Source: Proteobacteria bacterium UBA5122
Lineage (GTDB): Bacteria; Pseudomonadota; Gammaproteobacteria; Tenderiales; Tenderiaceae
DNA length: 64,000 nt
Direction of reading: 5' to 3'
Assembly (NCBI GenBank): GCA_002415485.1
Contig: DHYU01000060.1
Coordinates: 8,181 to 72,180, forward strand
Shown here one piece after another: positions 29,606 to 53,639 of this stretch. The notes beneath the pieces are model-generated. The model ran no database searches, was not told where the DNA came from, and was given only the letters and a program-made list of their open reading frames with translations. The first letter of the stretch is position 1, and each line of letters starts with the position of its first letter. The position numbers and the translations under genes are program-made.

Positions 29606-31033
29606 TCATCCGCGCAAACCGAAGATTCGTTTGATCCATTTTTTCGCGTTGGGCGTGAGGCCTTCCTTCATACGCGCATCGGCGACGCGACGATTGATCT
29701 GCGCCAGCGTCGGGTAGATGTGGATCACGCTCGACAGGTCGCTGGCCTTCATGCCCTTGGCGATGGCGAGCACGTATTCGTGGATCAACTCGCCGGCATG
29801 GGGGCCGACGATGGCGGCGCCCAATAACTTGCCTTTGGGCGTGGTGATGATCTTGGCGAAGCCCTCGGTGGTGCCGTCGGCACGGGCGCGGTCCATGTCC
29901 TGAAACGGAAAGGCGTAGACGCGATGCTCGATGCCCTGGTGTTTGGCCTCGGTCTCCGACAGGCCGACACGCGCCAGCTCGGGGTCGCTGAAGGTTGCCC
30001 AGGGCACGTTTTGGGTCTGTGCCTTTGCCGGCAGGCGGAAGATCGCATTGCGCAGCACGACGCCGGCGTGGTGCTCGGCCATGTGGGTGAACTGATGGCC
30101 GCCGACCACATCACCTGCGGCGTAGATGTGTTTTTGGCTGGTGCGCAGACGGGCGTCGGTGACCAGCCGGCCATCCTGTAGTGCGACGCCAGCGGCCTCC
30201 AGGCCCAGCTGCTCGACATTGGGTCTGCGACCGGCGGCGATCAGCAGTTTGTCGGCGCGGATGGTTTTGCTGGCGCCGTTGGCGTCGGTGAGCTGTAACT
30301 CGATCACGCCGTGGCTATCCTGGACCTGCTCGGGGCTGTGGTTCAGCAATAATTCGACGCCTTCCTCGCGCAGCCGTTCGGCCACCACGGCGGCCATGTC
30401 GGCGTCTTCCTTGGGCAGGATCTGTGGGCCGCGTTGCACCAGATAGACCTTGCTGCCGAGACGGCTGAAGGCCTGGGCCAGTTCGACACCGATCGGGCCG
30501 CCGCCGAGCACGATCATGCTGTCGACATTGTCGCGCAGATCGAAGACCTGCTCGTTGGTCAGGTAATCGACCGAGTCGATGCCAGGGATGTCCGGGATCG
30601 CCGGCCGGGAGCCGGTGGCGATGACGAAGCGTTTGGCCGTGATGTCGCGGCCGTTGACGTGAAAGGTGTGTGGATCGGTGAAACGCCCGGCGCCGAGAAT
30701 GACATCGACACCGAGGCTGCGGAAACGCTCGGGGCTGTCGTGAGGCTCGATGGTCTTGATCACATCGGCGACCCGCTCCATCACCGGCCCCAGCTGGGGG
30801 CTGATGGGGCTGGCCGGCAGGGCGTAGCGGCCGGCATCGCGGATGGTATGGGCTACTTTGGCCGATTGCAGCAGGGTTTTGCTGGGGACGCAGCCGTAGT
30901 TGAGGCAGTCGCCGCCCATTTTATGCTTCTCGACCAGCGCCACCTTGGCCCCCAGCGTGGCCCCCCCGGCGGCGACCACCAGCCCGGCGGCGCCGCCGCC
31001 GATGACGCAGATGTCGAATACTATTTTAGGCAT
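29606..31033 (-). CDS. FAD-dependent pyridine nucleotide-disulfide oxidoreductase (Lpd/MerA-like core)
   Basis: It has 'DICVIGGGAAG' and the redox-active 'GGDCLNYGCVPSK'. The C-terminus has a dimerisation-domain 'HIYPT' motif. There is no HMA domain and no C-terminal Cys pair. The ATG is at 31033. Confidence 0.85.
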   Translation of the reverse strand: MPKIVFDICVIGGGAAGLVVAAGGATLGAKVALVEKHKMGGDCLNYGCVPSKTLLQSAKVAHTIRDAGRYALPASPISPQLGPVMERVADVIKTIEPHDSPERFRSLGVDVILGAGRFTDPHTFHVNGRDITAKRFVIATGSRPAIPDIPGIDSVDYLTNEQVFDLRDNVDSMIVLGGGPIGVELAQAFSRLGSKVYLVQRGPQILPKEDADMAAVVAERLREEGVELLLNHSPEQVQDSHGVIELQLTDANGASKTIRADKLLIAAGRRPNVEQLGLEAAGVALQDGRLVTDARLRTSQKHIYAAGDVVGGHQFTHMAEHHAGVVLRNAIFRLPAKAQTQNVPWATFSDPELARVGLSETEAKHQGIEHRVYAFPFQDMDRARADGTTEGFAKIITTPKGKLLGAAIVGPHAGELIHEYVLAIAKGMKASDLSSVIHIYPTLAQINRRVADARMKEGLTPNAKKWIKRIFGLRG

Positions 31034-31147
31034 GGATTGATTCCCTTCAGGTATACTTAGCAAACGTAGGTTATTTCCATCTTGGTCGATCGTACTGCAT
31101 AAACCTTACAGTGCGTTTCGGTGTTTGCAACATTTTGAGGTAGTACT

Positions 31148-32341
31148 ATGGATGAACTGACAAAGTCTAAAGCTCGGTTCGATAATAGTGGGCTTTGGTC
31201 TTATCTGCAGGCCATGGCCGATGCCAATGCCTCGGATTTGTTTATTACCGTTGGCAAACCTCCATGTTTTAAAGTGGATGGTCGGGTTGTTCCCTTCAGT
31301 ACTCAGCCCTTGACCTCAGATCAGGTCAACAAACTCGCCTTTGCCACCATGAGCCTGGAGCAGGGCGATGAGTTTCGGCGAGAGCTTGAGTCCAATTTTG
31401 CAATTAGTCGACCGGGTATCGGCCGTTTCCGGGTCAATGTGTTCAGGCAGCTGAACGAGACGGGGCTGGTCGTGCGGCGGATCAAGGATGCGATTCCAAC
31501 CTTGGCAGAGCTGGGCCTGCCGGCAAGTGTTGAGTCGCTCGCCATGGCCAAGCGTGGGCTGGTCATTTTTGTGGGGGCGACAGGGGTGGGTAAGTCGACC
31601 TCCCTCGCAGCGATGGTGGGGCATCGTAACCGCAGCAGCGAAGGGCATATTGTCTGTGTTGAAGATCCTGTGGAATTTGTTCATCACCATGCGGGCTGTA
31701 TCGTCACGCAGCGAGAGGTCGGTATCGATACCCATTCTTATGAACATGCACTGCAGAACATGCTGCGCCAGGCACCGGATGTGGTCATGATCGGTGAGGT
31801 GCGTAGCCGCGAGACGATGGAGCATGCGATCACCTTCGCTGAAACAGGCCATCTGGTGTTGACTACCTTGCATGCCACCAATACCAATCAGGCATTGGAC
31901 CGGATCCTCAACTTTTTCCCCAGTGATCGCCGTCAGCAATTGTTGATGGATCTATCCCTGAATCTGAGGGCTATTGTTGGGCAGCGGCTGCTGCCAGCAG
32001 TGGCCAGCAATGGCCGTAAGCTGGCGGTGGAGTTGATGCTGAATTCACCCTATATCGCTGATCTCATTTTGCGTGGCGATATCCCGTCCATTCGTGAGGC
32101 GATGAAAAAATCAACGTTGCAGCAGATGTGTACGTTTGATGATTCTATCCATGCATTGTATGAGGCCGGTGAGATCACTGCCGAAGATGCGGTGCATTAC
32201 GCGGATTCGCCGAACAATCTGCGACTGATGATCAAGTTGGGGCGGCGTTTTAATCCGGAGGCTGAGCTATTGCGCGGGCAGATGGTGGAACGTGGAGACA
32301 GTGCTGCCCGTCATTACCCGCAGCGACATACACATTCGTAA
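31148..32341 (+). CDS. pilU: PilT/PilU-family type IVa pilus retraction ATPase (PilU-like)
   Basis: It has 'ASDLFITVGKPPCFKVDGR', Walker A 'GATGVGKST', Walker B 'VVMIGEVR' and the His box 'GHLVLTTLHATN'. Confidence 0.8.
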   Translation: MDELTKSKARFDNSGLWSYLQAMADANASDLFITVGKPPCFKVDGRVVPFSTQPLTSDQVNKLAFATMSLEQGDEFRRELESNFAISRPGIGRFRVNVFRQLNETGLVVRRIKDAIPTLAELGLPASVESLAMAKRGLVIFVGATGVGKSTSLAAMVGHRNRSSEGHIVCVEDPVEFVHHHAGCIVTQREVGIDTHSYEHALQNMLRQAPDVVMIGEVRSRETMEHAITFAETGHLVLTTLHATNTNQALDRILNFFPSDRRQQLLMDLSLNLRAIVGQRLLPAVASNGRKLAVELMLNSPYIADLILRGDIPSIREAMKKSTLQQMCTFDDSIHALYEAGEITAEDAVHYADSPNNLRLMIKLGRRFNPEAELLRGQMVERGDSAARHYPQRHTHS

Positions 32342-32346
32342 CGCTT

Positions 32347-32373
32347 GCGCCCTTGTATCCAGGGGCGCTTTTT
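32347..32373 (+). terminator. rho-independent terminator of pilU
   Basis: GCGCCC-10 nt-GGGCGC followed by TTTTT, 6 nt after the stop. Confidence 0.7.
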
Positions 32374-32578
32374 CATCCGAGTAGTCTCTACACTACGACC
32401 TTCCTTTACCAGACATCCCCTGATGTAAATTTTTTTTAACATTCCATGAGGGGATCCGTCGTGGATCAGCGCTTATCACAGTAAGGGCAACATCTGAGTT
32501 CGAAAATCTCTCGAAGCAGGTGTTGGTGATCTGGACAAAAGCGGCCAAATTCGAAGACACGGCTTTGGCGGATACGGG

Positions 32579-33379
32579 GTGAATATAATGAACACGGGGA
32601 TGATGAAAGGCGTAACACTGGCGTTTGGATTGGCATTGTCATCGGTGGCCAGCGCCGGGCAGATGTTGTGGGTCGGTGATGAACATGGAAACCTGGGCAC
32701 GGTTGATATCGCAACCGGCGCGGTAAATGTCATCGGTAACATGGGAACGGCGATGACGGACATCGCCTTTGACAATCATGGCAATCTCTACGGCATCACG
32801 TTCAACTCGCTGTTTAGGATCGATACCGCCACTGCAGGCATAACCCATATCGGTCAGCATACGCTGGGGGTGGGGGCAAAGAATTCTCTGGAATTTGGTG
32901 CCGACGGCACGCTGTATGCCGCGAGTGACGCCTTGTATTCACTCGATGTAGGCACTGGCGCAGCCTCACGCATCGGTAATGGGGGGGCGGCATATCAATC
33001 ATCGGGTGATCTGGCCTTTGTCGGCGGTGATATGTATCTCAGCTCGGCCGGTATCTCCGACAGCCTGATGCGCGTGGATGCAGCAACGGGGGTGGCGACA
33101 TTGATCGGTGATTTGGGCTTTAACGCCGTCTATGGTCTGGCCACTGATCTGGAAAACAATCTCTGGGGACTATCCGGTACAAGCATTCTGTCGATCAACA
33201 CCCTCACTGGTGCGGCTTCTTTTGTGTTGGATTATGCCGGTTCCGGCCTCGGCCAGGCCTGGGGTTCGGCCTTCTTTGAAAGACCTGGCACTGTGCCAGA
33301 ACCATCTGCCTTGTTGATGATGAGCGCAGGGCTGCTGGGCCTGGGTTACATGCGCAAGCGTAAAACACTCTCCGTTTAA
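32579..33379 (+). CDS. PEP-CTERM-anchored repeat (propeller-like) protein
   Basis: It has a signal peptide, then about five repeats of 'L..ID..TG.a..IG'. The C-terminus is 'VPEPSALLMMSAGLLGLGYMRKRK', a PEP-CTERM sorting signal. Confidence 0.75.
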   Translation: MNIMNTGMMKGVTLAFGLALSSVASAGQMLWVGDEHGNLGTVDIATGAVNVIGNMGTAMTDIAFDNHGNLYGITFNSLFRIDTATAGITHIGQHTLGVGAKNSLEFGADGTLYAASDALYSLDVGTGAASRIGNGGAAYQSSGDLAFVGGDMYLSSAGISDSLMRVDAATGVATLIGDLGFNAVYGLATDLENNLWGLSGTSILSINTLTGAASFVLDYAGSGLGQAWGSAFFERPGTVPEPSALLMMSAGLLGLGYMRKRKTLSV

Positions 33380-33464
33380 ACAGCATCGTGTGTGTCCATA
33401 GTCGCGGCGGATATCCGCTGCCTGGATACGCACGCCCTAAAAAAGCTTATAGAGGATAAATCAA

Positions 33465-34637
33465 ATGTCCATTTTCAAATTATCAGCGCGGGATCTCAAT
33501 GCGGTTGTGCTGGGTATCACGCTGTCGTTGGCGGCAGCACCGGGTGTGTTGCTGGCACAATCGGTAGACTTCGATGGTGACGGCATTCCTGATGTGGTGG
33601 ATATCGATGACGATAACGACGGCATACTCGATATCGATGAAGGCGGCGGTGCGCGTGACACCGATGGTGATCTCTTTGATGACTCACGTGATTGGGACAG
33701 CGACGGTGATGGCATCTTTGACGTGGTCGAGGCCGGCGCGAATGGCCCCGCCTTGGACCTGAATCAGGATGGCATGATCGACCTGTCATTCCCCGTCGGC
33801 GCCAATGGTCTGGCCAATTTCATCGAGATCGGTGATGAATCCGGCTTGGTGGATTACAACGGCGATGGCGTTTCAGATCTGCCACGGCAGACCGATCGCG
33901 ACGAAGTACCAGACTTTGTCGATCTCGATTCGGATAACGATACCGCTCTCGACTTCACTGAATCCGGCGGCAACAGTTTGCTGCCTGTTGATAGCGATGG
34001 CGATGGCGTCGCTGATTACCGTGACCTTGATTCCGATAACGACGGCATCCCGGATATCCGCGAAGTGAAGGGTGTGATGGATAACTCTATTTTTGTCATC
34101 GATCCGATCCTGGATGTGAATGTCGATGGCCTGGATGACAACGTGGCTGCGTCACCTTCACCGGTGCCTGACAGCGAGCTGGATGGCACACCGGATTACC
34201 TCGATCTCAATTCTGACAACGACCCCCTAAATGACGTGATTGAGGCCGGTTCGGTCGATGTCGATGGCGACAATGTTGTTGATGGCCAGGTGGATCTGAA
34301 TGGCAACGGTTATCACGATTACTTTGAGGTGTTACCGCTGCCGGTGCCTGATGTCGACAGTGATGGCATTGAAGATTTCAGAGAGCCGAATGGTGATGCT
34401 CCACCACCGCCGCCATGTGTGCATAACTGTGAAGACACTGAGGTGCCAGTTGATACAGGGACGCACTCTGCAGCGAAAAACAATGTTCAAACGGGTTTGG
34501 AAGGTGTAGGTGGTTGCAGCGTCAATCCGAATGCAGCATTTGATCCATTATTGCCATTGATGACGAGCATGTTATTGCTACATGCGTTCAGACATCGTAT
34601 CGCCAGCGTTGCGCGCAAGCTGATCAAAGGAAACTAA
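33465..34637 (+). CDS. thrombospondin type-3-like Ca2+-binding repeat protein with a C-terminal hydrophobic sorting-like tail
   Basis: It has many 'DxDxDGxxDxxD' units ('DFDGDGIPDVVDIDDDNDGILDIDE', 'DSDNDGIPD'). The tail is 'GGCSVNPNAAFDPLLPLMTSMLLLHAFRHR'. Confidence 0.75.
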   Translation: MSIFKLSARDLNAVVLGITLSLAAAPGVLLAQSVDFDGDGIPDVVDIDDDNDGILDIDEGGGARDTDGDLFDDSRDWDSDGDGIFDVVEAGANGPALDLNQDGMIDLSFPVGANGLANFIEIGDESGLVDYNGDGVSDLPRQTDRDEVPDFVDLDSDNDTALDFTESGGNSLLPVDSDGDGVADYRDLDSDNDGIPDIREVKGVMDNSIFVIDPILDVNVDGLDDNVAASPSPVPDSELDGTPDYLDLNSDNDPLNDVIEAGSVDVDGDNVVDGQVDLNGNGYHDYFEVLPLPVPDVDSDGIEDFREPNGDAPPPPPCVHNCEDTEVPVDTGTHSAAKNNVQTGLEGVGGCSVNPNAAFDPLLPLMTSMLLLHAFRHRIASVARKLIKGN

Positions 34638-34639
34638 TC

Positions 34640-35734
34640 ATGAAGACCTCAAACGTAAAAACTTCTTTGTCGGCCCTGAGCCTGGCGTTGGGTATCGGTT
34701 TAGCGCTGCCTGTGGCCGCCAGCTCGGATATGAATGGCAATGATCTGCCTGCCTGGTACGGTGGCCTGGGGATCGGTGTGTCCAACCTGGAGCCGGACAC
34801 CAACAACAGCGGTTATAGCCTGGATGATACGCGTGATACTGGCTGGCGCCTGTTCCTGGGCTATGACCACAGCGACAAACTCAGCTTTGAAGGTTATTAC
34901 TCTGATCAAGGCGAAGTAACCTTGGCCTCCAATGGCAGCATCGCCTATCAGGACTTTGGAGCCGGTGCGCTTTATCGTTTTATCGGTGGTAACTATGATC
35001 GCCAAGGTGTGGATGTCTTCGCCAAGGCAGGCTTAGGCTTTATGAAGAACAGTAGCGACATCCATTATGAGCGTGTTAATGATCATCACGTCTATTTTGG
35101 TGCCGGTGTTGCCTATGCCTTAAACGAGCGTTACACCTTGCGCGCCGATGTCGATCTGTATGACAAGGACTCGCAGTTCTACACCATCAGCATTGCGCGT
35201 TATTTTGGTGAACACAAAAAGACGGCCTATCGTGTCGTCGAGCCTAAACAGGAACAATTGGCTATCGTGGTGGAGCCACGTGAACCGGTGATGCCGCCAG
35301 TGATGCCACCAGAAGAACCCAGCGTAGAGGTGAAAAATGCGGACTGTTTGAATGCAATCTCCAGCGCTGCTTTAAGCACGGATGGTTGTGTGTTGACGCT
35401 GGAGAATATCAATTTTGAATTTGATTCGGCCGAGTTGAAGAACAATGCCAAGAACCTGCTCGATGACCTGGCGCAAAAGCTTCGCCCCAGTGCCAAGTAC
35501 AAGCTGAATGTGTCGGGCCATACCGACATCATCGGTTCGCGTGAATACAACCTGGGGCTATCGCAAAACCGTGCCCAGTCAGTGAAAGGTTATCTGGTCG
35601 ACAATGGCATCGAAGGTTCGGAGATCGCAGTTGAGGCGCATGCCTTTGATATCCCGGTCGCCGATAACAGCAGTGCCTATGGCCGCGCCAAGAATCGTCG
35701 TGTTGAAGTGAAGATTATTGAGCTGGTCGAATAA
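34640..35734 (+). CDS. OmpA-family outer-membrane protein (beta-barrel + Pro-rich linker + OmpA domain)
   Basis: It has a signal peptide, alternating beta-strand pattern, the linker 'PVMPPVMPPEEP', and a C-terminal 'VSGHTDIIGSREYNLGLSQNRA...NRRVEV'. Confidence 0.85.
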   Translation: MKTSNVKTSLSALSLALGIGLALPVAASSDMNGNDLPAWYGGLGIGVSNLEPDTNNSGYSLDDTRDTGWRLFLGYDHSDKLSFEGYYSDQGEVTLASNGSIAYQDFGAGALYRFIGGNYDRQGVDVFAKAGLGFMKNSSDIHYERVNDHHVYFGAGVAYALNERYTLRADVDLYDKDSQFYTISIARYFGEHKKTAYRVVEPKQEQLAIVVEPREPVMPPVMPPEEPSVEVKNADCLNAISSAALSTDGCVLTLENINFEFDSAELKNNAKNLLDDLAQKLRPSAKYKLNVSGHTDIIGSREYNLGLSQNRAQSVKGYLVDNGIEGSEIAVEAHAFDIPVADNSSAYGRAKNRRVEVKIIELVE

Positions 35735-35770
35735 GACGCTGCAATGGCCGGATGCGTGAGCAGGTGTCGT

Positions 35771-35806
35771 AAAAAAAAGGGGGGATGTTTTACATCCCCC
35801 CTTTTT
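35771..35806. terminator. bidirectional rho-independent terminator
   Basis: A8-GGGGGGATGT-ttt-ACATCCCCCC-T5. It lies between the convergent OmpA-family and decarboxylase genes. Confidence 0.75.
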
Positions 35807-35849
35807 CTATTTGCATCATCAATGATGTAGTGTGGGTCAGTGAACTCAA

Positions 35850-37091
35850 TCAACGACTCGTGTCGGCAGTAAAGAGCAGACGCTCGTAAAACTGGCCGCG
35901 CATACAGTGATTGGAGCTCATGGCCGATGCATAACCCCCGGCGTTGAGGAAGACCAGGTAGTCACCCTCTTCCATGGGCGGTAGCTCGACCTCTTCGGCC
36001 CAGATATCCAGCGCCTCGTTGATGTTGCCGGCGATGGTGACCTTGCCAGTGGCGCCGGGACGCAGGCGACAAGGGGTGGGTTCGCAGGGCAGGCGATAGA
36101 AGGCAGGCTCAAGGGCCAGGTTAAATCCGCCATTGACGCCGATAAAGTCCACCTGCTGTTTGCGTTCCACGGTGTTGACCTGCAGCACCAACACGCCGCT
36201 GTCCTTGACCAGAAAGTCTCCAGGCTCAACACAGACCTCAAGGTTGCGTGGCGCGAAGTGTTTTTTCAGGATGTCTGACCAGTGCTGCAGGTCCAGTGGG
36301 CTGTCGGTCAGCACATGGGGCAGGCCGAGGCCACCACCGATATTGACGCTGCGCACGGTCTCCAGCTGATCAACAAACCACGTGCAGTCGCCGACGATCT
36401 CGTCCCACAGCGGCAGCTGCGGCGCCAGATAACCGATGCCGACATGGAAGTGGATGCGTTCTATGGTCATGCCGTGCTGCTGTGCCTCGGCACAGGCCTC
36501 GGCGAAGTGTTCACGGTAGATGCCAAACTTGGTGGTCTTGCGGCCACTGTATTGCAGCAACTGGTTATTGCCGTAGCCGACCCCTTTGCCGGGGTTGACG
36601 CGCAGACCGATGCGACGCCCTGGGCAACGCTGCCCCAGGCGGCGGATCGTGCTGATGGAGTCACAATTGATCAGTACTGCCGGGAGACGCGCCAGGATGT
36701 CCAGATCCTCGTTCGAGACCGAGGTCGCGGTAAAGGAGATATCCTCCTCCCGAAAGCCACAGGCCAGGGCGTGCTGTACTTCGGCAGGTGAGCAGGCATC
36801 AATGCCACACAGGCCGCTGTTGCGCATCATGCTCAACAAGGGGGTAAAACGGTTCGCCTTCATCGCGTAAAAAACGCGGTGACGTAAACCGGTCGCGCTC
36901 AAGGCCCCTAGCAGCGTGTGCAGTTTCGCCAATACCCGGTCGCCGTTATAAAAAAACGATGGCGTGCCGTGCGCGGTGGCCAGCATCTGCAGGCTGTGCC
37001 CGGCCAGTGTGAGATCACCGTTGTCGGCATAGTGCAGGTCCGTCCGCTGCCACCAGAAGTCGGCTGTAGGATGGTTTAAGACGGTGTTCAA
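35850..37091 (-). CDS. PLP-dependent group IV decarboxylase (diaminopimelate/ornithine decarboxylase-like)
   Basis: It has 'GTPSFFY', the PLP-lysine region 'VFYAMKANRF', 'GGGLG', and a C-terminal 'CMRGQF'-type segment. I infer a TTG start at 37091 that overlaps the SET stop (TTGA). Confidence 0.8.
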   Translation of the reverse strand: MNTVLNHPTADFWWQRTDLHYADNGDLTLAGHSLQMLATAHGTPSFFYNGDRVLAKLHTLLGALSATGLRHRVFYAMKANRFTPLLSMMRNSGLCGIDACSPAEVQHALACGFREEDISFTATSVSNEDLDILARLPAVLINCDSISTIRRLGQRCPGRRIGLRVNPGKGVGYGNNQLLQYSGRKTTKFGIYREHFAEACAEAQQHGMTIERIHFHVGIGYLAPQLPLWDEIVGDCTWFVDQLETVRSVNIGGGLGLPHVLTDSPLDLQHWSDILKKHFAPRNLEVCVEPGDFLVKDSGVLVLQVNTVERKQQVDFIGVNGGFNLALEPAFYRLPCEPTPCRLRPGATGKVTIAGNINEALDIWAEEVELPPMEEGDYLVFLNAGGYASAMSSNHCMRGQFYERLLFTADTSR

Positions 37092-37567
37092 CGTTTTAGA
37101 CCCTTCAGGTATGCGAGGCCTTCCTCGTTCACCAGCTCCTTGCGGCCAGTGATCCAATGGCGGCAGCTGCCGGAGCCACACAGACAGGCAAACTGTTTGA
37201 ACAGAACATCCTCAGTGGCGGCATAGTCCATGCTCAATACCGCTTCGGGTTCAATGTTGTCCAGCGCCCACACTTCCAGTGTCTGCATGTCGACAAAGAC
37301 ATTGGGTGAGCACGAGTGGGCCAGATAGCCGACAAACTGCTCATCCAGCAAATGGATATTGGAGTTGATTTGCAGGGTGTGCTGGGTGCGGTAGGGTAGA
37401 ACCGTCCCCGAGAAACGGGCAATCAATTCACCACGTGGGTGCCCACGCCGAGAGTAAACGGCCTTGCCCTTGCCGTTTTCACGTTCTTCAACGATAAATT
37501 CTGAGGCGGGTGAGGGACTACAGTCTTCTTCCTCTTCTGCTTCGATTTCGAAACGCGATGCTGCCAT
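37088..37567 (-). CDS. SET-domain protein (putative lysine methyltransferase)
   Basis: 'AHSCSPN' matches NHSCxPN, 'SMDY' carries the catalytic Tyr, and 'CLCGSGSC' matches the post-SET CxCxxxxC. The N-terminus is acidic. Confidence 0.75.
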   Translation of the reverse strand: MAASRFEIEAEEEEDCSPSPASEFIVEERENGKGKAVYSRRGHPRGELIARFSGTVLPYRTQHTLQINSNIHLLDEQFVGYLAHSCSPNVFVDMQTLEVWALDNIEPEAVLSMDYAATEDVLFKQFACLCGSGSCRHWITGRKELVNEEGLAYLKGLKR

Positions 37568-37890
37568 GATTGTTCAGACTCCTTATGGGTGATTGTTTGA
37601 CAACAAAACTTCGTGCTATTTGCCAGATAATACGAAGAAGTGCAATTGGAAAATGATATGCAGATGCAATTTATAACATCCTGAGGGTTGTAGGGGTACT
37701 TTAGTGTCCGGGGGACAGGAATGGTGCCGTTGGGCAGATTCGATCAGGGGTGGGGGTGAGAGAAGTCCAAGGCCATGTTTTTAAATGGATTTTTTATATC
37801 CTGGCAAAACAAGGAAGATCGTCGGGCTGTCCATTCGTCAATAAACCCAGCTTTTGGATTGGTATTGGTGGGGATCTTCCACGTAGGCGT

Positions 37891-38472
37891 TTAGTGAAAT
37901 ACTAACTGCGCTGTATATTGAGAGGTGTCGGTCATCCACTGTTGTAACAAGTCTTCAGATTTGCCTTCAAAACACCCAGGTTGCCATTCCTCGCGCGCCA
38001 GGCGGCACGCGATCTTCCAGTCTTCCAACAGGGGCATGGTGGCGATTACGTCCGACGGTAGCCCTGGCAGCATGATGCGTGAGGGTTCGGCCTTAAATGG
38101 AAAGGGCTTGTCGCTTTGTAGAATGACGAGTGCTGGGCGTTGTTGTTGGGTCTTGAGCAGGCGGCAGGTGTAGACGGCGTCGGCGATGCCGAGTTGTTTG
38201 CCGAGGATGACGGTGTTGTTGGCGTCTACAGGTGGTTGCCAATCGGTGTTGGGTTGCTGTGTTAAATCCAGTGTTTGGCCTGCGGATGGCAGTGCCTGTG
38301 GCCCGTTGGCATAGAACAATAGATCCAGTTCGTGTGTGCGTGCCGCCATGATCGCGCCCTGGCCGAGCTCGCCACAAAAGCGGCTGCCGGGTGGAGGCGG
38401 GGTGTCGGTGAATGTGACGGTGAGTTGCCACTGACCTGCGCCGAGGTCAGTGGCGTGGATGACTTCCATCAT
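37891..38472 (-). CDS. hypothetical protein at the end of the pyr operon
   Basis: 193 aa from the ATG-ATG at 38472, which is 10 nt after the pyrC' stop. It has only a faint ferredoxin-reductase/PyrK-like flavour ('VILGKQLGIADAVYTC') and nothing I can name. Confidence 0.5.
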   Translation of the reverse strand: MMEVIHATDLGAGQWQLTVTFTDTPPPPGSRFCGELGQGAIMAARTHELDLLFYANGPQALPSAGQTLDLTQQPNTDWQPPVDANNTVILGKQLGIADAVYTCRLLKTQQQRPALVILQSDKPFPFKAEPSRIMLPGLPSDVIATMPLLEDWKIACRLAREEWQPGCFEGKSEDLLQQWMTDTSQYTAQLVFH

Positions 38473-38482
38473 CGCGTTACGA

Positions 38483-39766
38483 TCATTCGCCGTGGAGTTG
38501 GTAGACCAGCCGGCCACCGACCAGGGTGTGGGTGACGCGGCCCTTTAGTTCCCAGCCGAGGAAGGGCGTGTTGTGGCCGCGGCTTTGAATGGTGTCTTTG
38601 CTCAGCTCCCAATACTGCTCCGGGTCGACGATGGCGATGTCGGCGGCGCGGCCGATGCCGAGCGTGCCGGCCTCCAGGCCGAGGATCTGCGCCGGGGCGC
38701 AGGTGACCTTGGCGATGGCGCTGCTGAGGCTGAGGTTGGCCTCGTCGGCCAGACGCAGTGTCAGCGGCAACAGGGTTTCGAGGGCCGACATGCCGGTCTC
38801 GGTCTCGCTGAACGGCACCAGCTTGGCGTCGGCCTCGTGCGGTTGGTGATCGGAGCAGATGGCGCTGATCACGCCGCGTTGCAGGCTTTGGCGCAGGCCC
38901 TGCATGTCACGCTGACTGCGCAGCGGTGGCCGCAGATGGCATTGGCTGTTGAATTCGCCCACGTCCATGTCGGTGAGGAACAGTTGATGTGCGGCGACAT
39001 CTATCGTCACCGGCAGACCATCGAACTGGGCGCGGCCGACCATCTGCACGGCCTTGGCCGATGACAGGCGACAGAAGTGGGCGCGCACACCGGTGTCGGC
39101 GATCAGGGCCAGGTCGCGGGCGACGGCGACGGTCTCGGCGGCCTCGGGGATGCCGGGCAGGCCGAGGCGGGTGCTGATCGCGCCTTCATGCATGCAGCCA
39201 CCGGCGGCGAGGTTGTCATCCTCGGCGTGGAGGAAGACGGTCAGGCCAAAGGTGGCGGCGTATTCCATCATCCGTCGTTGAACCTGATGGTCCTTGAACG
39301 GCGCGTAGCCGTTGCTGACACCGACACAGCCTGCCGTTTGCAGCGCGGCCATCTCGCTCAGGAGGTTACCTGCCAGTTCCTGCGTCGCGGCGCCGATGCA
39401 GACCACGCGCGCCCGGCCGATGCGTTCGCTGCGCAGGCGGATCAGCTTGACCACGGCCGGGGTATCGATCACCGGATCGGTATCCGGCGGGCAGGCCAGC
39501 GTGGTGATGCCCGCGCTGACGGCAGCCTGGATCTCGGAGGCGAGGGTCGCCTTGTATTCATAACCGGGTTCGCGCAGGCGGGCGGCGAGGTCGACCAGAC
39601 CGGGGATGATCAGCTGGCCGCTGGCGTCGATGGTCTGCTCGGCCGTGAAGTCGGCAGGCGCAGCGCCGAGGGCGACGATGTTGCCGTCGCGGATGTGCAG
39701 GGCATCGATGCGGTCGATGTCGTTGGCCGGATCGATGATGCGGCCATTGAGGATGGAAATATTCAT
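38483..39766 (-). CDS. pyrC': dihydroorotase-like protein, probable non-catalytic PyrC'
   Basis: It has the amidohydrolase fold, but the metal-binding 'DxHVHLREPG' reads 'DLAARLREPG', so both His residues are lost. Its start overlaps the pyrB stop (TAATG). Confidence 0.85.
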   Translation of the reverse strand: MNISILNGRIIDPANDIDRIDALHIRDGNIVALGAAPADFTAEQTIDASGQLIIPGLVDLAARLREPGYEYKATLASEIQAAVSAGITTLACPPDTDPVIDTPAVVKLIRLRSERIGRARVVCIGAATQELAGNLLSEMAALQTAGCVGVSNGYAPFKDHQVQRRMMEYAATFGLTVFLHAEDDNLAAGGCMHEGAISTRLGLPGIPEAAETVAVARDLALIADTGVRAHFCRLSSAKAVQMVGRAQFDGLPVTIDVAAHQLFLTDMDVGEFNSQCHLRPPLRSQRDMQGLRQSLQRGVISAICSDHQPHEADAKLVPFSETETGMSALETLLPLTLRLADEANLSLSSAIAKVTCAPAQILGLEAGTLGIGRAADIAIVDPEQYWELSKDTIQSRGHNTPFLGWELKGRVTHTLVGGRLVYQLHGE

Positions 39767-52146: not shown

Positions 52147-53499
52147 CTAGTCCTGGGTGGCGAGGTGGATGCCGTCGGTTGCGACGCGGGCGAGGAAGTC
52201 GATCTGCTCGGGTTCGATCACGTAGGGCGGCATGAAGTAGACGACATTGCCCAGCGGTCTGAGTAGCGCGCCTTGGCTCAGTGCGTGTTGGTACACGCGC
52301 AGGCCACGGCGCTGTTGCCACGGGAAGGGTTTGCGTGTGGCCTTGTCCTCGACCATTTCAATCGCCAGTACCATGCCGCGGTGGCGGATCTGGCCGACGT
52401 GCGGGTGATCCTGCAGGTGGGCAGTTGCACGGGCCATGTGCGCGGACAGCGCCTGGTTTTTTTCGATGATGTCGTCGCTGGCGAAGATGTCGAGTGTCGC
52501 CAGTGCCGCGCTGCAGGCCAGCGGGTTGCCGGTGTAGCTGTGCGAGTGCAGGAAGGCGTTGAGTTTTTCGTAGTCGTCGTAAAAGGCCTGGTAGATCTTG
52601 TCGTGGGTCATGACCCCGGCCAGCGGCAGGTAACCGCCGGTCAGCCCCTTGGACAGGCACATGAAGTCGGGTGTGATGCCGGCCTGTTCACAGGCGAAGA
52701 GGGTGCCGGTGCGGCCGAAACCGACGGCGATCTCGTCGGCGATCAAATGGACGTTGTGGCGGTCACAGGCCTCACGCAGCAGCTGCAGATAACGCGGGTG
52801 GTACATGCGCATGCCGGCGGCGCATTGAATGAGCGGTTCGACGATGACGGCGCAGGCCTGGTGGGCGTGTTGGGCCAGTGCCAGTTCCATAGGTGCGAAC
52901 ATGCGTTCGGCGTAGGCGATCTCGTCTTCACCGGGCTCCATGTGGAAGGTGTCGGCGCCGGGCACAGTGATGGCCTCCATCAACAGCGGGCCGTAGGTCG
53001 ATTTGTAGAGGCTGACATCGCCGACGGCCAGCGCGCCGAGCGTCTCGCCGTGGTAGCTGTTGGCGAGGGTGATGAACTTGGTCTTTTGCGTTTGGCCAGA
53101 GTTGAGCCAGTAGTGAAAGCTCATCTTGAGTGTGGCCTCGATGGCGGCCGAGCCGTTATCGGTATAAAAGCAGCGATTGAGGCCGGGTGGCGTGATCGCG
53201 ACCAGCCGCTCGGAGAGTTCGATGATCGGCTCGTGGCTGAAGCCACCGAGGATGACGTGTTCCAGTTGATCGAGCTGGGCCTTGACGCGCGCACTGATGC
53301 GCGGGTTGTTATGGCCGAACAGATTGACCCACCACGAGCTGACGGCATCGAGATAACGCTTGCCGTCGAAGTCTTCCAGCCAGACGCCCTCGCCGCGTTT
53401 GATCGGGACCAAGGGCAGCCATTCGTGGTCTTTCATCTGGGTGCACGGATGCCAAAGGACATTGAGGTCGCGTTCGATAAGGGTGGCATTGAGGCTCAT
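52147..53499 (-). CDS. bioA: adenosylmethionine-8-amino-7-oxononanoate aminotransferase
   Basis: 'LWHPCTQM', 'IADEIAVGFGRTG' and 'LSKGLTGG' motifs. ATG at 53499. Confidence 0.9.
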   Translation of the reverse strand: MSLNATLIERDLNVLWHPCTQMKDHEWLPLVPIKRGEGVWLEDFDGKRYLDAVSSWWVNLFGHNNPRISARVKAQLDQLEHVILGGFSHEPIIELSERLVAITPPGLNRCFYTDNGSAAIEATLKMSFHYWLNSGQTQKTKFITLANSYHGETLGALAVGDVSLYKSTYGPLLMEAITVPGADTFHMEPGEDEIAYAERMFAPMELALAQHAHQACAVIVEPLIQCAAGMRMYHPRYLQLLREACDRHNVHLIADEIAVGFGRTGTLFACEQAGITPDFMCLSKGLTGGYLPLAGVMTHDKIYQAFYDDYEKLNAFLHSHSYTGNPLACSAALATLDIFASDDIIEKNQALSAHMARATAHLQDHPHVGQIRHRGMVLAIEMVEDKATRKPFPWQQRRGLRVYQHALSQGALLRPLGNVVYFMPPYVIEPEQIDFLARVATDGIHLATQD

Positions 53500-53639
53500 G
53501 GTTAGACTCGGGCTCGGGATAGGAATCGGGTTTTTCGTGGTCAAAAGCGCTATAGTGTACCGCCGCCATGATAGGGGATTCGGCGGTGAATGACGAGGGC
53601 AGGCGCCAGTGCGCTAAAATACGCCGACAGTAGATTGGA

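What the first reader, a model, noticed from the sequence alone, without database searches (positions are those of the whole stretch)
35850..37567. SET-domain methyltransferase translationally coupled to a DAP/ornithine-decarboxylase-like PLP enzyme
The 159-aa protein has the SET hallmarks. 'AHSCSPN' matches NHSCxPN, 'SMDY' carries the catalytic Tyr, and 'CLCGSGSC' matches the post-SET CxCxxxxC.

Its TGA stop (37088-37090) overlaps a TTG (37089-37091). That TTG gives the downstream decarboxylase a normal-length N-terminus, with ~35 aa before 'GTPSFFY'. The alternative ATG at 37181 would add 30 codons of out-of-frame SET sequence. A TTGA overlap implies a two-gene operon.

The bacterial SET proteins I know of are mostly host-targeting effectors or nucleoid-protein methylases. 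Pairing with a group IV decarboxylase suggests a small-molecule pathway instead, such as methylation plus decarboxylation of a basic amino acid or polyamine precursor. It could also mean SET modification of the enzyme itself. I know of no described pathway with this pair.
Basis: partly seen in the sequence, partly recalled or inferred. Interest (0 to 1): 0.65.

Follow-up and report, generated by a model that had tools for sequence, protein, structure and literature searches.

The report
BurB/BurI-type DMSP synthesis gene pair
This two-gene operon most likely methylates methionine and then decarboxylates the product, the first two steps of a known bacterial route to the marine sulfur compound DMSP; the route is known, but reviews place its methyltransferase only in Burkholderia, and here it sits in an uncultured bacterium and in many other lineages.

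Summary
A 159-aa SET protein (37567-37088, minus strand) ends in a TGA that overlaps the TTG start of a 413-aa fold-type III PLP decarboxylase (37091-35850).

The pairing is not incidental:
- 59 of the 80 best related genome loci keep the two genes adjacent on one strand.
- The median junction is a 4-nt overlap.
- Fused proteins exist in both domain orders.

The pathway is already described.
- The SET protein matches crystallised BurB, the Burkholderia methionine S-methyltransferase (E 1.4e-37; model TM 0.84, rmsd 1.0 Å), far better than any histone methyltransferase.
- The decarboxylase is 52% identical to B. thailandensis BurI, the S-methylmethionine decarboxylase.
- It is not LysA. It scores below the NCBIfam lysA cut-off. 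Both arginines that bind the distal carboxylate of diaminopimelate are replaced by Asp and Glu across the family.
- Related operons add BurD-like aminotransferase, BurE-like aldehyde dehydrogenase, SAM synthetase, SAH hydrolase and a homocysteine-synthesis gene.

Best reading: Met → S-methylmethionine → DMSP-amine, then probably DMSP. This is a new member of a known kind. Reviews up to 2026 call burB Burkholderia-restricted, so its breadth appears unreported. No activity has been tested.

The parts
37568..37890 (-). Upstream intergenic region (323 bp, AT-rich), the presumed promoter and leader of the operon. It holds a conserved element AATTGCAC-N17-TGGCAAATAGCAC at 37646..37614, and an AGGAG ribosome-binding site about 10 nt before the SET ATG.
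   Evidence: Sequence read. The motif is shared with L001, L002 and L003 in the alignment. There is no Rfam match and no sigma-70 consensus. The function of the element is not established.
37088..37567 (-). SET-domain SAM-dependent methyltransferase of the BurB family (159 aa), predicted to be an L-methionine S-methyltransferase that makes S-methylmethionine.
   Evidence: PDB BurB 9L4T/9L4V at E 1.4e-37 over residues 14-158. AF2 model pLDDT 87.8. Foldseek top hit 9L4V with TM 0.84, rmsd 1.0 Å, 46% identity. BurB H72, T73, H93 and Y124 and the four Zn-type Cys are conserved.
37088..37091 (-). TTGA junction: the SET stop (TGA) overlaps the decarboxylase start (TTG). This arrangement fits translational coupling.
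   Evidence: The same 4-nt overlap appears in the gene calls on three records. The median junction is -4 nt across 46 related loci, by heuristic start assignment.
35850..37091 (-). Fold-type III (Orn/DAP/Arg decarboxylase family) PLP enzyme of the BurI/SMMDC family (413 aa), predicted to be an S-methylmethionine decarboxylase that makes DMSP-amine.
   Evidence: Pfam PF02784 + PF00278. 52% identity over 405 aa to B. thailandensis P0302, E 4e-144. 51% to the pseudomallei-group protein that sits in the bur cluster. LysA equivalog score 217 against a cut-off of 298. Changes R271D, R307E and C342N relative to E. coli LysA.
35772..35808 (.). GC-rich hairpin flanked by A and T runs: a bidirectional intrinsic terminator shared with the convergent OmpA-like gene. 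It ends the two-gene operon.
   Evidence: RNA fold of the minus strand gives -29.3 kcal/mol, z = -5.2, and 0 of 200 shuffles fold as well. The simple terminator scan missed it.

Best explanation
The operon encodes the first two enzymes of the methylation pathway of dimethylsulfoniopropionate (DMSP) synthesis.

- Step 1 (inferred by homology): the SET-domain enzyme transfers a methyl group from SAM to the sulfur of free L-methionine, giving S-methylmethionine (SMM).
- Step 2 (inferred by homology): the LysA-like PLP enzyme decarboxylates SMM to DMSP-amine (3-dimethylsulfoniopropylamine). Acidic residues sit where LysA has the two arginines that hold a carboxylate, which fits a cationic side chain.
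- Step 3 (inferred, weaker): an aminotransferase and an aldehyde dehydrogenase encoded elsewhere in the genome convert DMSP-amine to DMSP. Related genomes encode these two enzymes in the same operon.

The overlapping stop and start, and the fused versions in other organisms, suggest the two activities are made in fixed proportion.
For: SET protein:
- BurB is by far the best solved relative (E 1.4e-37, against about 1e-3 for histone methyltransferases).
- The structure model superposes on BurB-SMM-SAM at TM 0.84 and rmsd 1.0 Å. The best other SET structures reach TM 0.65 or less.
- BurB is a Met-specific S-methyltransferase (PMC12542666).

Decarboxylase:
- It is 52% identical to B. thailandensis BurI.
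- It is 51% identical to the pseudomallei-group orthologue that lies between the KARI-like and AMP-binding genes of the bur cluster.
- A burI deletion mutant accumulates SMM (PMC7496086).
- BurI and SMMDC are cited as the bacterial SMM decarboxylases (PMC11464771).
- Not LysA: it scores below the lysA equivalog cut-off. In 58 homologues from SET-containing loci, R271 is D/T/E in 57, R307 is E in 57, and C342 is N in 57. The PLP lysine and E343 are kept. The two arginines bind DAP's distal carboxylate (PMC8277567).

Linkage:
- 59 of 80 loci are adjacent on the same strand.
- The median junction is -4 nt.
- SET-DEC and DEC-SET fusion proteins both exist.

Pathway context in relatives:
- Class III aminotransferase in 23 loci, aldehyde dehydrogenase in 15 and MetK in 13.
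- The aminotransferase and dehydrogenase are 53-57% identical to those in bur-like clusters.
- The Desulfopila operon reads SAH hydrolase, methyltransferase, MetK, DEC, SET, aminotransferase, ALDH, homocysteine-biosynthesis enzyme. De novo homocysteine supply fits stoichiometric consumption of methionine.
Against: - No enzyme of this clade outside Burkholderia has been assayed.
- The window SET is only 44-46% identical to BurB.
- In a simple NJ tree without support values it falls in a different clade from BurB proper.
- BurB binds Met mostly through main-chain atoms, so side chains cannot confirm substrate specificity.
- BurB H138 (adenine contact) is Leu here, and R42 and R133 are Lys.
- Acidic residues in the decarboxylase pocket would equally suit an ammonium side chain (Lys or Orn).
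- The window has no BurD/BurE-type aminotransferase or aldehyde dehydrogenase. Its only class III aminotransferase (52147-53544) is 26% identical. DMSP as the end product is therefore unproven.
- Whether this organism has a separate lysA could not be checked beyond the 64-kb window.
Confidence: 0.8

Rival explanations
1. One reading: the SET enzyme N-methylates a basic amino acid (Lys, Orn, DAP or Arg) and the decarboxylase then makes a methylated diamine or polyamine precursor.
For: - The decarboxylase pocket has acidic residues at LysA R271 and R307 and keeps E343. This would suit a cationic nitrogen as well as a sulfonium.
- Canonical SET enzymes methylate lysine nitrogen.
- The aminotransferase plus aldehyde dehydrogenase seen in related operons would also fit diamine catabolism.
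Against: - The nearest characterised SET enzyme is Met-specific BurB, with a 34-orders-of-magnitude better E-value than lysine methyltransferases.
- All four enzymes of the extended operons are 44-57% identical to BurB, BurI, BurD and BurE.
- A homocysteine-biosynthesis gene in the Desulfopila-type operons is explained by Met consumption, not by N-methylation.
Confidence: 0.07
2. The module stops at DMSP-amine (or SMM). The sulfonium amine itself would be the functional product, for example a compatible solute or polyamine analogue, and no DMSP is made in this organism.
For: - About two thirds of the pair-carrying loci, including this window, have no BurD/BurE-type genes within the flanks examined.
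- The two-enzyme core is what gets fused.
Against: - In B. thailandensis, burD and burE deletion mutants still make the downstream product, attributed to housekeeping enzymes. Absence of dedicated genes therefore does not block DMSP formation.
- The flanks examined were only 6 kb.
Confidence: 0.15
3. The decarboxylase is the organism's ordinary lysA and its position next to a SET gene is incidental.
For: - Databases name close homologues 'diaminopimelate decarboxylase'.
- E. coli LysA is the best solved relative (E 7e-38).
- No other lysA-like gene lies in the window.
Against: - It scores below the lysA equivalog cut-off (217 vs 298 bits).
- It is only about 30% identical to E. coli LysA, against 52% to BurI.
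- Both distal-carboxylate arginines and the CES cysteine are replaced family-wide.
- The adjacency is conserved in 59 of 80 loci, and fusions exist.
Confidence: 0.02
4. The SET protein is a protein-lysine methyltransferase that acts on the decarboxylase or another protein.
For: PGAP names homologues 'SET domain-containing protein-lysine N-methyltransferase'. The SET hallmarks are present.
Against: - It is a minimal 159-aa SET with no peptide-binding accessory domains.
- The best structural match is BurB with free SMM bound in a sealed pocket.
- Similarity to histone methyltransferases is marginal.
Confidence: 0.03

Closest known systems
BurB / BurI of the Burkholderia thailandensis bur (malleicyprol) cluster
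   Same: - Same two protein families: a SET-domain Met S-methyltransferase and a LysA-like PLP SMM decarboxylase.
- 44-46% and 52% identity respectively.
- Same diagnostic decarboxylase motifs (EPGD, LEPAFY, GNINEALD).
   Different: - In Burkholderia the genes are separated by other genes: burI follows a large PKS gene, a KARI-like gene and a 493-aa ORF in L085.
- They sit in an NRPS-PKS cluster that uses DMSP as a building block.
- Here the genes overlap, form a stand-alone two-gene operon among housekeeping genes, and have no megasynthase, aminotransferase or dehydrogenase nearby.
Four-enzyme DMSP pathway of Streptomyces mobaraensis (MSMT, SMMDC, DMSPAAT, DMSPADH)
   Same: Same reaction sequence. 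Its SMM decarboxylase is reported 48% identical to BurI, so it belongs to the same decarboxylase family.
   Different: The methyltransferase there is described as mmtN-type in PMC9135737, not clearly SET. I could not obtain the sequences, so this was not tested here.
MmtN-dependent methylation pathway (Novosphingobium and others) and the plant MMT/SDC/DOX/DDH pathway (Spartina)
   Same: Same chemistry: Met to SMM to DMSP-amine to DMSP-aldehyde to DMSP.
   Different: - MmtN has no detectable similarity to BurB.
- The plant SDC is an ornithine-decarboxylase-like enzyme, and an amine oxidase replaces the aminotransferase.
- The two Sphingomonadales homologues I looked up (Rhizorhabdus, Novosphingobium album) turned out to be paired with SET genes, not mmtN.
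Diaminopimelate decarboxylase LysA
   Same: Same fold and the same PLP-binding residues: K54, H191, E268 and Y378 equivalents.
   Different: - The distal-site arginines are replaced by Asp and Glu, and Cys of the CES motif by Asn.
- It scores below the equivalog threshold and is about 30% identical.
Protein-lysine SET methyltransferases (histone KMTs, bacterial effectors)
   Same: SET fold, an NHSC-like motif, the conserved Tyr, and post-SET cysteines.
   Different: - Only marginal sequence similarity (E about 1e-3) and TM 0.65 or less.
- No substrate-peptide domains.
- The nearest relative acts on a free amino acid's sulfur.

Membership tests
BurB family (SET-domain L-methionine S-methyltransferase) | SET fold with post-SET cysteine cluster | tested here: met
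   AF2 model pLDDT 87.8. The top three Foldseek hits are BurB chains, TM 0.82-0.84. C86, C128, C130 and C135 are invariant.
BurB family (SET-domain L-methionine S-methyltransferase) | Full-length sequence similarity to BurB clearly above that to protein-lysine methyltransferases | tested here: met
   BurB E 1.4e-37 over residues 14-158. The next hits are histone KMTs at E 1e-3 to 9e-3.
BurB family (SET-domain L-methionine S-methyltransferase) | Residues that contact SAM or are needed for activity in the BurB crystal structures (R42, H72, T73, H93, Y124, R133, H138) | tested here: inconclusive
   H63, T64, H84 and Y115 are identical. R42 becomes K33 and R133 becomes K124 (conservative). H138 becomes L129 (not conserved). 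Met contacts in BurB are main-chain, so they are uninformative.
BurB family (SET-domain L-methionine S-methyltransferase) | Met to SMM activity with SAM, and no activity on other thioethers or amines | not testable with these tools
   Needs an enzyme assay.
BurI / SMMDC family (S-methylmethionine decarboxylase) | Fold-type III PLP decarboxylase with an intact PLP site | tested here: met
   PF02784 + PF00278. The K78 (PLP lysine), H216, E289 and Y387 equivalents are conserved.
BurI / SMMDC family (S-methylmethionine decarboxylase) | High full-length identity to genetically characterised BurI, and shared family-specific motifs | tested here: met
   52% over 405 aa to B. thailandensis P0302. 51% to the bur-cluster protein P0176. 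EPGD, LEPAFY and GNINEALD are shared.
BurI / SMMDC family (S-methylmethionine decarboxylase) | Genomic linkage to a Met S-methyltransferase gene | tested here: met
   4-nt overlap here. Adjacent in 59 of 80 loci. Fusions in both orders.
BurI / SMMDC family (S-methylmethionine decarboxylase) | SMM decarboxylase activity | not testable with these tools
   Needs an enzyme assay.
Complete DMSP methylation pathway (four enzymes) | DMSP-amine aminotransferase (BurD-like) and DMSP-aldehyde dehydrogenase (BurE-like) present | tested here: not met
   Neither is in the 64-kb window. The only class III aminotransferase is 26% identical. They are present in 23 and 15 related loci respectively. The rest of this genome was not available.
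Diaminopimelate decarboxylase (LysA, TIGR01048) | Score at or above the curated equivalog cut-off | tested here: not met
   216.9 bits against a cut-off of 297.9.
Diaminopimelate decarboxylase (LysA, TIGR01048) | Two arginines that bind the distal carboxylate of DAP, and the Cys-Glu-Ser motif | tested here: not met
   R271 becomes D292, R307 becomes E328, and C342-E-S becomes N358-E-A. The role of the arginines is taken from PMC8277567.
Protein-lysine SET methyltransferases | Specific similarity to a characterised protein KMT, or a peptide-binding groove or accessory domains | tested here: not met
   Only marginal hits. The Pfam SET score is below the gathering score. It is a 159-aa single domain.

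The most novel reading that the evidence does not exclude
The overlapping (and in some organisms fused) SET-decarboxylase module may be a self-contained pathway whose physiological product is DMSP-amine rather than DMSP. DMSP-amine is a sulfonium amine that could act as an osmolyte or polyamine analogue. The module is carried by sulfur-oxidising Gammaproteobacteria, sulfate reducers, Azospirillaceae, Sphingomonadales, Myxococcota and Planctomycetota. Under this reading, burB-type genes mark an overlooked pool of organosulfonium producers in sulfidic sediments and soils.
Probability: 0.2. Interest if true: 0.65.

Novelty: new member of a known kind. Interest (0 to 1): 0.42.

Why it matters
- **Literature gap.** DMSP is a major organosulfur compound and the precursor of dimethyl sulfide. 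Surveys of who makes it rely on marker genes. Recent literature treats burB as confined to Burkholderia: 'only in some Burkholderia' (2022), and 'reported exclusively in B. thailandensis' and 'narrow range of bacterial taxa' (2026).
- **What was found here.** A burB-burI type pair sits in an uncultured bacterium and in at least 59 species-level genomes. Many are cultured sulfur oxidisers, sulfate reducers and soil Alphaproteobacteria. The pattern scan confirmed 310 relatives of the SET protein in all.
- **A concrete consequence.** One carrier is a lucinid-clam symbiont, Ca. Sedimenticola endophacoides (L001). A 2025 preprint searched other lucinid symbiont genomes without BurB among its query proteins and found no DMSP synthesis genes.
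- **If the enzymes act as predicted.** Marker-gene surveys of sediments underestimate potential DMSP or DMSP-amine producers.
- **Annotation.** Homologues are currently named 'protein-lysine N-methyltransferase' and 'diaminopimelate decarboxylase'. Both names are probably wrong.

Tried and rejected
- **Riboswitch or leader RNA upstream of the operon.** An Rfam scan of 35500-38600 at E ≤ 1 gave only sub-threshold chance hits on the terminator hairpin.
- **Promoter and terminator scan.** It found no sigma-70 promoter and missed the obvious hairpin. Folding the hairpin directly confirmed it.
- **Second lysA in the window or in any fetched locus.** None found. This cannot settle whether the genome has one.
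- **MmtN pairing in Sphingomonadales.** I expected Sphingomonadales decarboxylase homologues to be paired with mmtN, which would have been independent evidence for SMM as substrate. The two I could look up (Rhizorhabdus, Novosphingobium album) are paired with SET genes instead. One look-up (P0189) found nothing on record.
- **First literature search.** It was too generic and gave nothing, as did the search on pathway abbreviations.
- **SET as SAM aminocarboxypropyl donor.** I considered, from memory of microcin C MccD/MccE, that the SET enzyme might use SAM as an aminocarboxypropyl donor with the decarboxylase finishing an aminopropylation. I dropped this once the BurB and BurI matches appeared.
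- **Sigma-54 promoter.** The conserved TGGCAAATAGC element has the wrong GG-to-GC spacing for a sigma-54 promoter, so I rejected that reading.
- **S. mobaraensis methyltransferase.** I did not claim it is a SET protein, because the sources disagree.
Full report
**1. The observation**

On the minus strand, an ATG at 37567 opens a 159-aa ORF that ends with TGA at 37090-37088. A TTG at 37091-37089 overlaps that stop (sequence ...AAA CGT TGA AC...) and opens a 413-aa frame ending at 35850. A GAAGGG stretch lies 10 nt upstream of the TTG.

Gene calls on three records of this sequence (ENA, NCBI and Logan assemblies) all give 159 aa and 413 aa with a 4-nt overlap.

Small corrections:
- The far-upstream alternative start at 37181 is GTG, not ATG.
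- 41 residues precede GTPSFFY.
- Pfam's SET model scores only 20.4 bits, below its 22.4 gathering score.

A 37-nt GC-rich hairpin with flanking A and T runs (35772-35808; -29.3 kcal/mol, z -5.2) separates the decarboxylase from the convergent OmpA-like gene. A 323-bp AT-rich region lies upstream of the SET gene. The unit is therefore a two-gene operon set among housekeeping genes (pyrR-pyrB-pyrC' on one side; OmpA-like and PEP-CTERM genes on the other).

**2. Is the pairing conserved?**

A pattern scan of one genome per GTDB species confirmed 310 relatives of the SET protein, of which the best 80 loci were kept.
- In 59 of the 80, a homologue of the window decarboxylase (47-72% identical) lies next to the SET gene on the same strand.
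- It usually lies downstream. In Desulfocapsaceae and Thiorhodococcus it lies upstream.
- With a heuristic start assignment, the SET-stop to decarboxylase-start distance has a median of -4 nt in 46 loci. 29 loci overlap, and 44 are within 30 nt.
- Single polypeptides carrying both domains exist in both orders: SET-DEC (P0112, P0128, P0166, P0384) and DEC-SET (P0340).

**3. What the SET protein is**

- Against all PDB sequences the best match is BurB (9L4T/9L4V), E 1.4e-37 over residues 14-158. Histone methyltransferases follow at E about 1e-3.
- An AlphaFold2 model (pLDDT 87.8) superposes on BurB-SMM-SAM at TM 0.84 and rmsd 1.0 Å with 46% identity. Other SET domains reach TM 0.65 at most.
- BurB is the SET-domain enzyme of Burkholderia thailandensis that S-methylates free L-methionine to S-methylmethionine (SMM). 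It is inactive on MTHB and MMPA (PMC7496086, PMC12542666).
- BurB residues H72, T73, H93 and Y124 and the four cysteines are identical in the window protein and throughout the family. R42 and R133 are Lys, and H138 is Leu.
- BurB holds Met through main-chain atoms, so sequence alone cannot prove substrate identity.

**4. What the decarboxylase is**

- It has the two Pfam domains of the Orn/DAP/Arg decarboxylase family.
- Its best solved relative is E. coli LysA, at about 30% identity.
- It scores 217 bits against the 298-bit cut-off of the NCBIfam lysA equivalog.
- It was aligned with E. coli LysA and 57 other homologues from SET-containing loci. The PLP lysine, H191, E268, E343 and Y378 are kept. 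R271 is Asp, Thr or Glu in 57 of 58. R307 is Glu in 57 of 58. C342 is Asn in 57 of 58.
[quoted passage not shown] The DAP site is therefore dismantled and made acidic, as expected for a cationic side chain.
- Searching with the decarboxylase of a bur-like cluster (Aquabacterium, L043) retrieved the Burkholderia proteins. One of them, P0176 (pseudomallei group), lies in the order PKS, KARI-like, 493-aa ORF, decarboxylase, AMP-binding. That is the bur cluster position of burI.
- The window protein is 51% identical to P0176 and 52% identical to the B. thailandensis protein over 405 residues. It shares the EPGD, LEPAFY and GNINEALD motifs.
- A burI deletion mutant accumulates SMM, and BurI and SMMDC are cited as the bacterial SMM decarboxylases.

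**5. Wider context**

- In 23 of the 80 loci a class III aminotransferase accompanies the pair. An aldehyde dehydrogenase does so in 15, and SAM synthetase in 13.
- These aminotransferases and dehydrogenases are 53-57% identical to those in bur-like clusters (L055 B. ubonensis, L043, L069). The bur-like clusters also carry a BurA-like NRPS-PKS upstream.
- Desulfopila sp. IMCC35008 has SAH hydrolase, a class I methyltransferase, MetK, decarboxylase, SET, aminotransferase, aldehyde dehydrogenase and a homocysteine-biosynthesis enzyme in one run.
- This is the full enzyme set for Met to SMM to DMSP-amine to DMSP-aldehyde to DMSP, together with SAM recycling and homocysteine-biosynthesis genes that could feed methionine supply.
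- A homocysteine-synthesis gene makes sense if methionine is consumed as a substrate. It is not needed if only SAM's methyl group is spent. This favours Met over a basic amino acid as the substrate.

**6. Mechanism proposed**

- SET: SAM + L-Met gives SAH + SMM.
- Decarboxylase: SMM gives CO2 + DMSP-amine.
- Both steps are inferred from about 45-52% identity to characterised enzymes and from gene context.
- Conversion to DMSP by unlinked enzymes is a weaker inference. The window lacks BurD/BurE-type genes. However, B. thailandensis burD and burE mutants still make the downstream product.
- The alternative that DMSP-amine is the end product is kept as a rival and as the novel case.

**7. Rivals**

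- LysA plus an incidental neighbour is effectively refuted (sections 2 and 4).
- N-methylation of Lys, Orn, DAP or Arg is not excluded by the acidic pocket. It is disfavoured by the BurB, BurI, BurD and BurE correspondence and by the homocysteine gene.
- Protein methylation has no support.

**8. Comparison with what is known, and novelty**

The pair is a member of the BurB/BurI system, so the pathway is known. It differs in genomic setting. It is a stand-alone, overlapping two-gene operon with no megasynthase, in an uncultured bacterium. The closest relatives of both proteins are from Ca. Sedimenticola endophacoides and Chromatiales MAGs.

In the searchable literature, burB is described as present 'only in some β-proteobacterial Burkholderia' (PMC9135737). 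[quoted passage not shown] The structural paper gives no distribution analysis.

The breadth seen here covers cultured Thiorhodococcus, Desulfosarcina, Desulfopila, Desulfobulbus, Desulfatibacillum, Desulfoluna, Niveispirillum, Rhodocista, Aerophototrophica, Rhizorhabdus and Novosphingobium. It also covers MAGs of Myxococcota, Planctomycetota and Chthoniobacteraceae. This breadth appears not to have been reported.

Caveats:
- In a simple NJ tree without support values, BurB proper groups with bur-like clusters and with stand-alone Pseudomonas and Pandoraea SET genes. The decarboxylase-adjacent SET genes form other clades.
- Not every one of the 310 relatives need be a Met methyltransferase.
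- A 1.84-billion-protein scan gave 230 representative clusters at E ≤ 1e-10.

**9. Verdict**

It is wrong on the substrate and on the claim that no such pathway is described.
- This is a new member of a known kind. Interest is moderate, mainly because it points to a much wider distribution of burB-burI than the field currently states, and because it offers many cultured organisms in which that can be tested.

Noticed in passing
P0315, P0316, P0323 (from; not in the window): Trypanosomatid proteins carry three to eight tandem BurB-like SET stretches each: Trypanosoma brucei (1449 aa, 6), Leishmania (1479 aa, 8) and Strigomonas (960 aa, 3). They average about 32-35% identity to the window protein and are the top-scoring hits in the 1.84-billion-protein scan. 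Their function is unknown to me.
   Followed up: partly
P0407 (Brevibacillus laterosporus NRPS, 4765 aa), residues 4651-4759: A non-ribosomal peptide synthetase has a C-terminal stretch 42% identical to the window SET protein. Pfam did not call a SET domain there.
   Followed up: no
window 37614-37646 (minus strand); L001, L002, L003 upstream regions: A conserved element ATTGC-N17-TGGCAAATAGCG lies about 45 nt upstream of the SET start codon in the window and its three closest relatives. It matches no Rfam family and neither the sigma-70 nor the sigma-54 consensus. It is possibly a promoter or operator.
   Followed up: partly
L086 6650-9197 (Rhizorhabdus dicambivorans); L087 5603-8224 (Novosphingobium album): In Sphingomonadales the SET-decarboxylase pair directly follows a STAS-domain gene and an RsbW-like kinase gene (HATPase_c_2). 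Rhizorhabdus also has a SpoIIE phosphatase nearby. This hints at partner-switching stress control.
   Followed up: no
L047-L054, L061-L079 (Pandoraea, Pseudomonas): About 20 SET homologues (47-53% identical) have no decarboxylase within 6 kb. The Pseudomonas ones sit beside a beta-carbonic anhydrase. In the NJ tree they group nearer to BurB proper than the window protein does. Their role is open.
   Followed up: partly
window 31000-38000: This stretch has GC 0.50-0.56, against 0.62-0.67 on both sides. It holds a T2SSE-type ATPase (31148-32341), a PEP-CTERM protein (32579-33379), an Asp-rich 390-aa protein with no Pfam hit (33465-34637), an OmpA-like protein (34640-35734) and the SET end of the operon. 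It is possibly acquired DNA.
   Followed up: no
L003, L004 (MAGs labelled Desulfobulbaceae): Their SET and decarboxylase are 72-74% identical to the window's and cluster inside the gammaproteobacterial clade. This suggests either recent horizontal transfer or mis-binned contigs.
   Followed up: no
window 37891-38472 (minus strand): A 193-aa ORF lies between the dihydroorotase-like gene and the operon. It has no Pfam family and was called as a gene in two assemblies.
   Followed up: no
window 52147-53544 (minus strand): A class III aminotransferase (465 aa, PF00202) is the only candidate in the window for DMSP-amine transamination, but it is just 26% identical to the cluster-encoded aminotransferases.
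   Followed up: partly
L001 1647-3295 (Ca. Sedimenticola endophacoides MAG): A lucinid-clam symbiont genome carries the pair at 72% identity. A 2025 preprint that did not list BurB among its query proteins found no DMSP synthesis genes in the lucinid symbiont genomes it examined, which were different species.
   Followed up: partly
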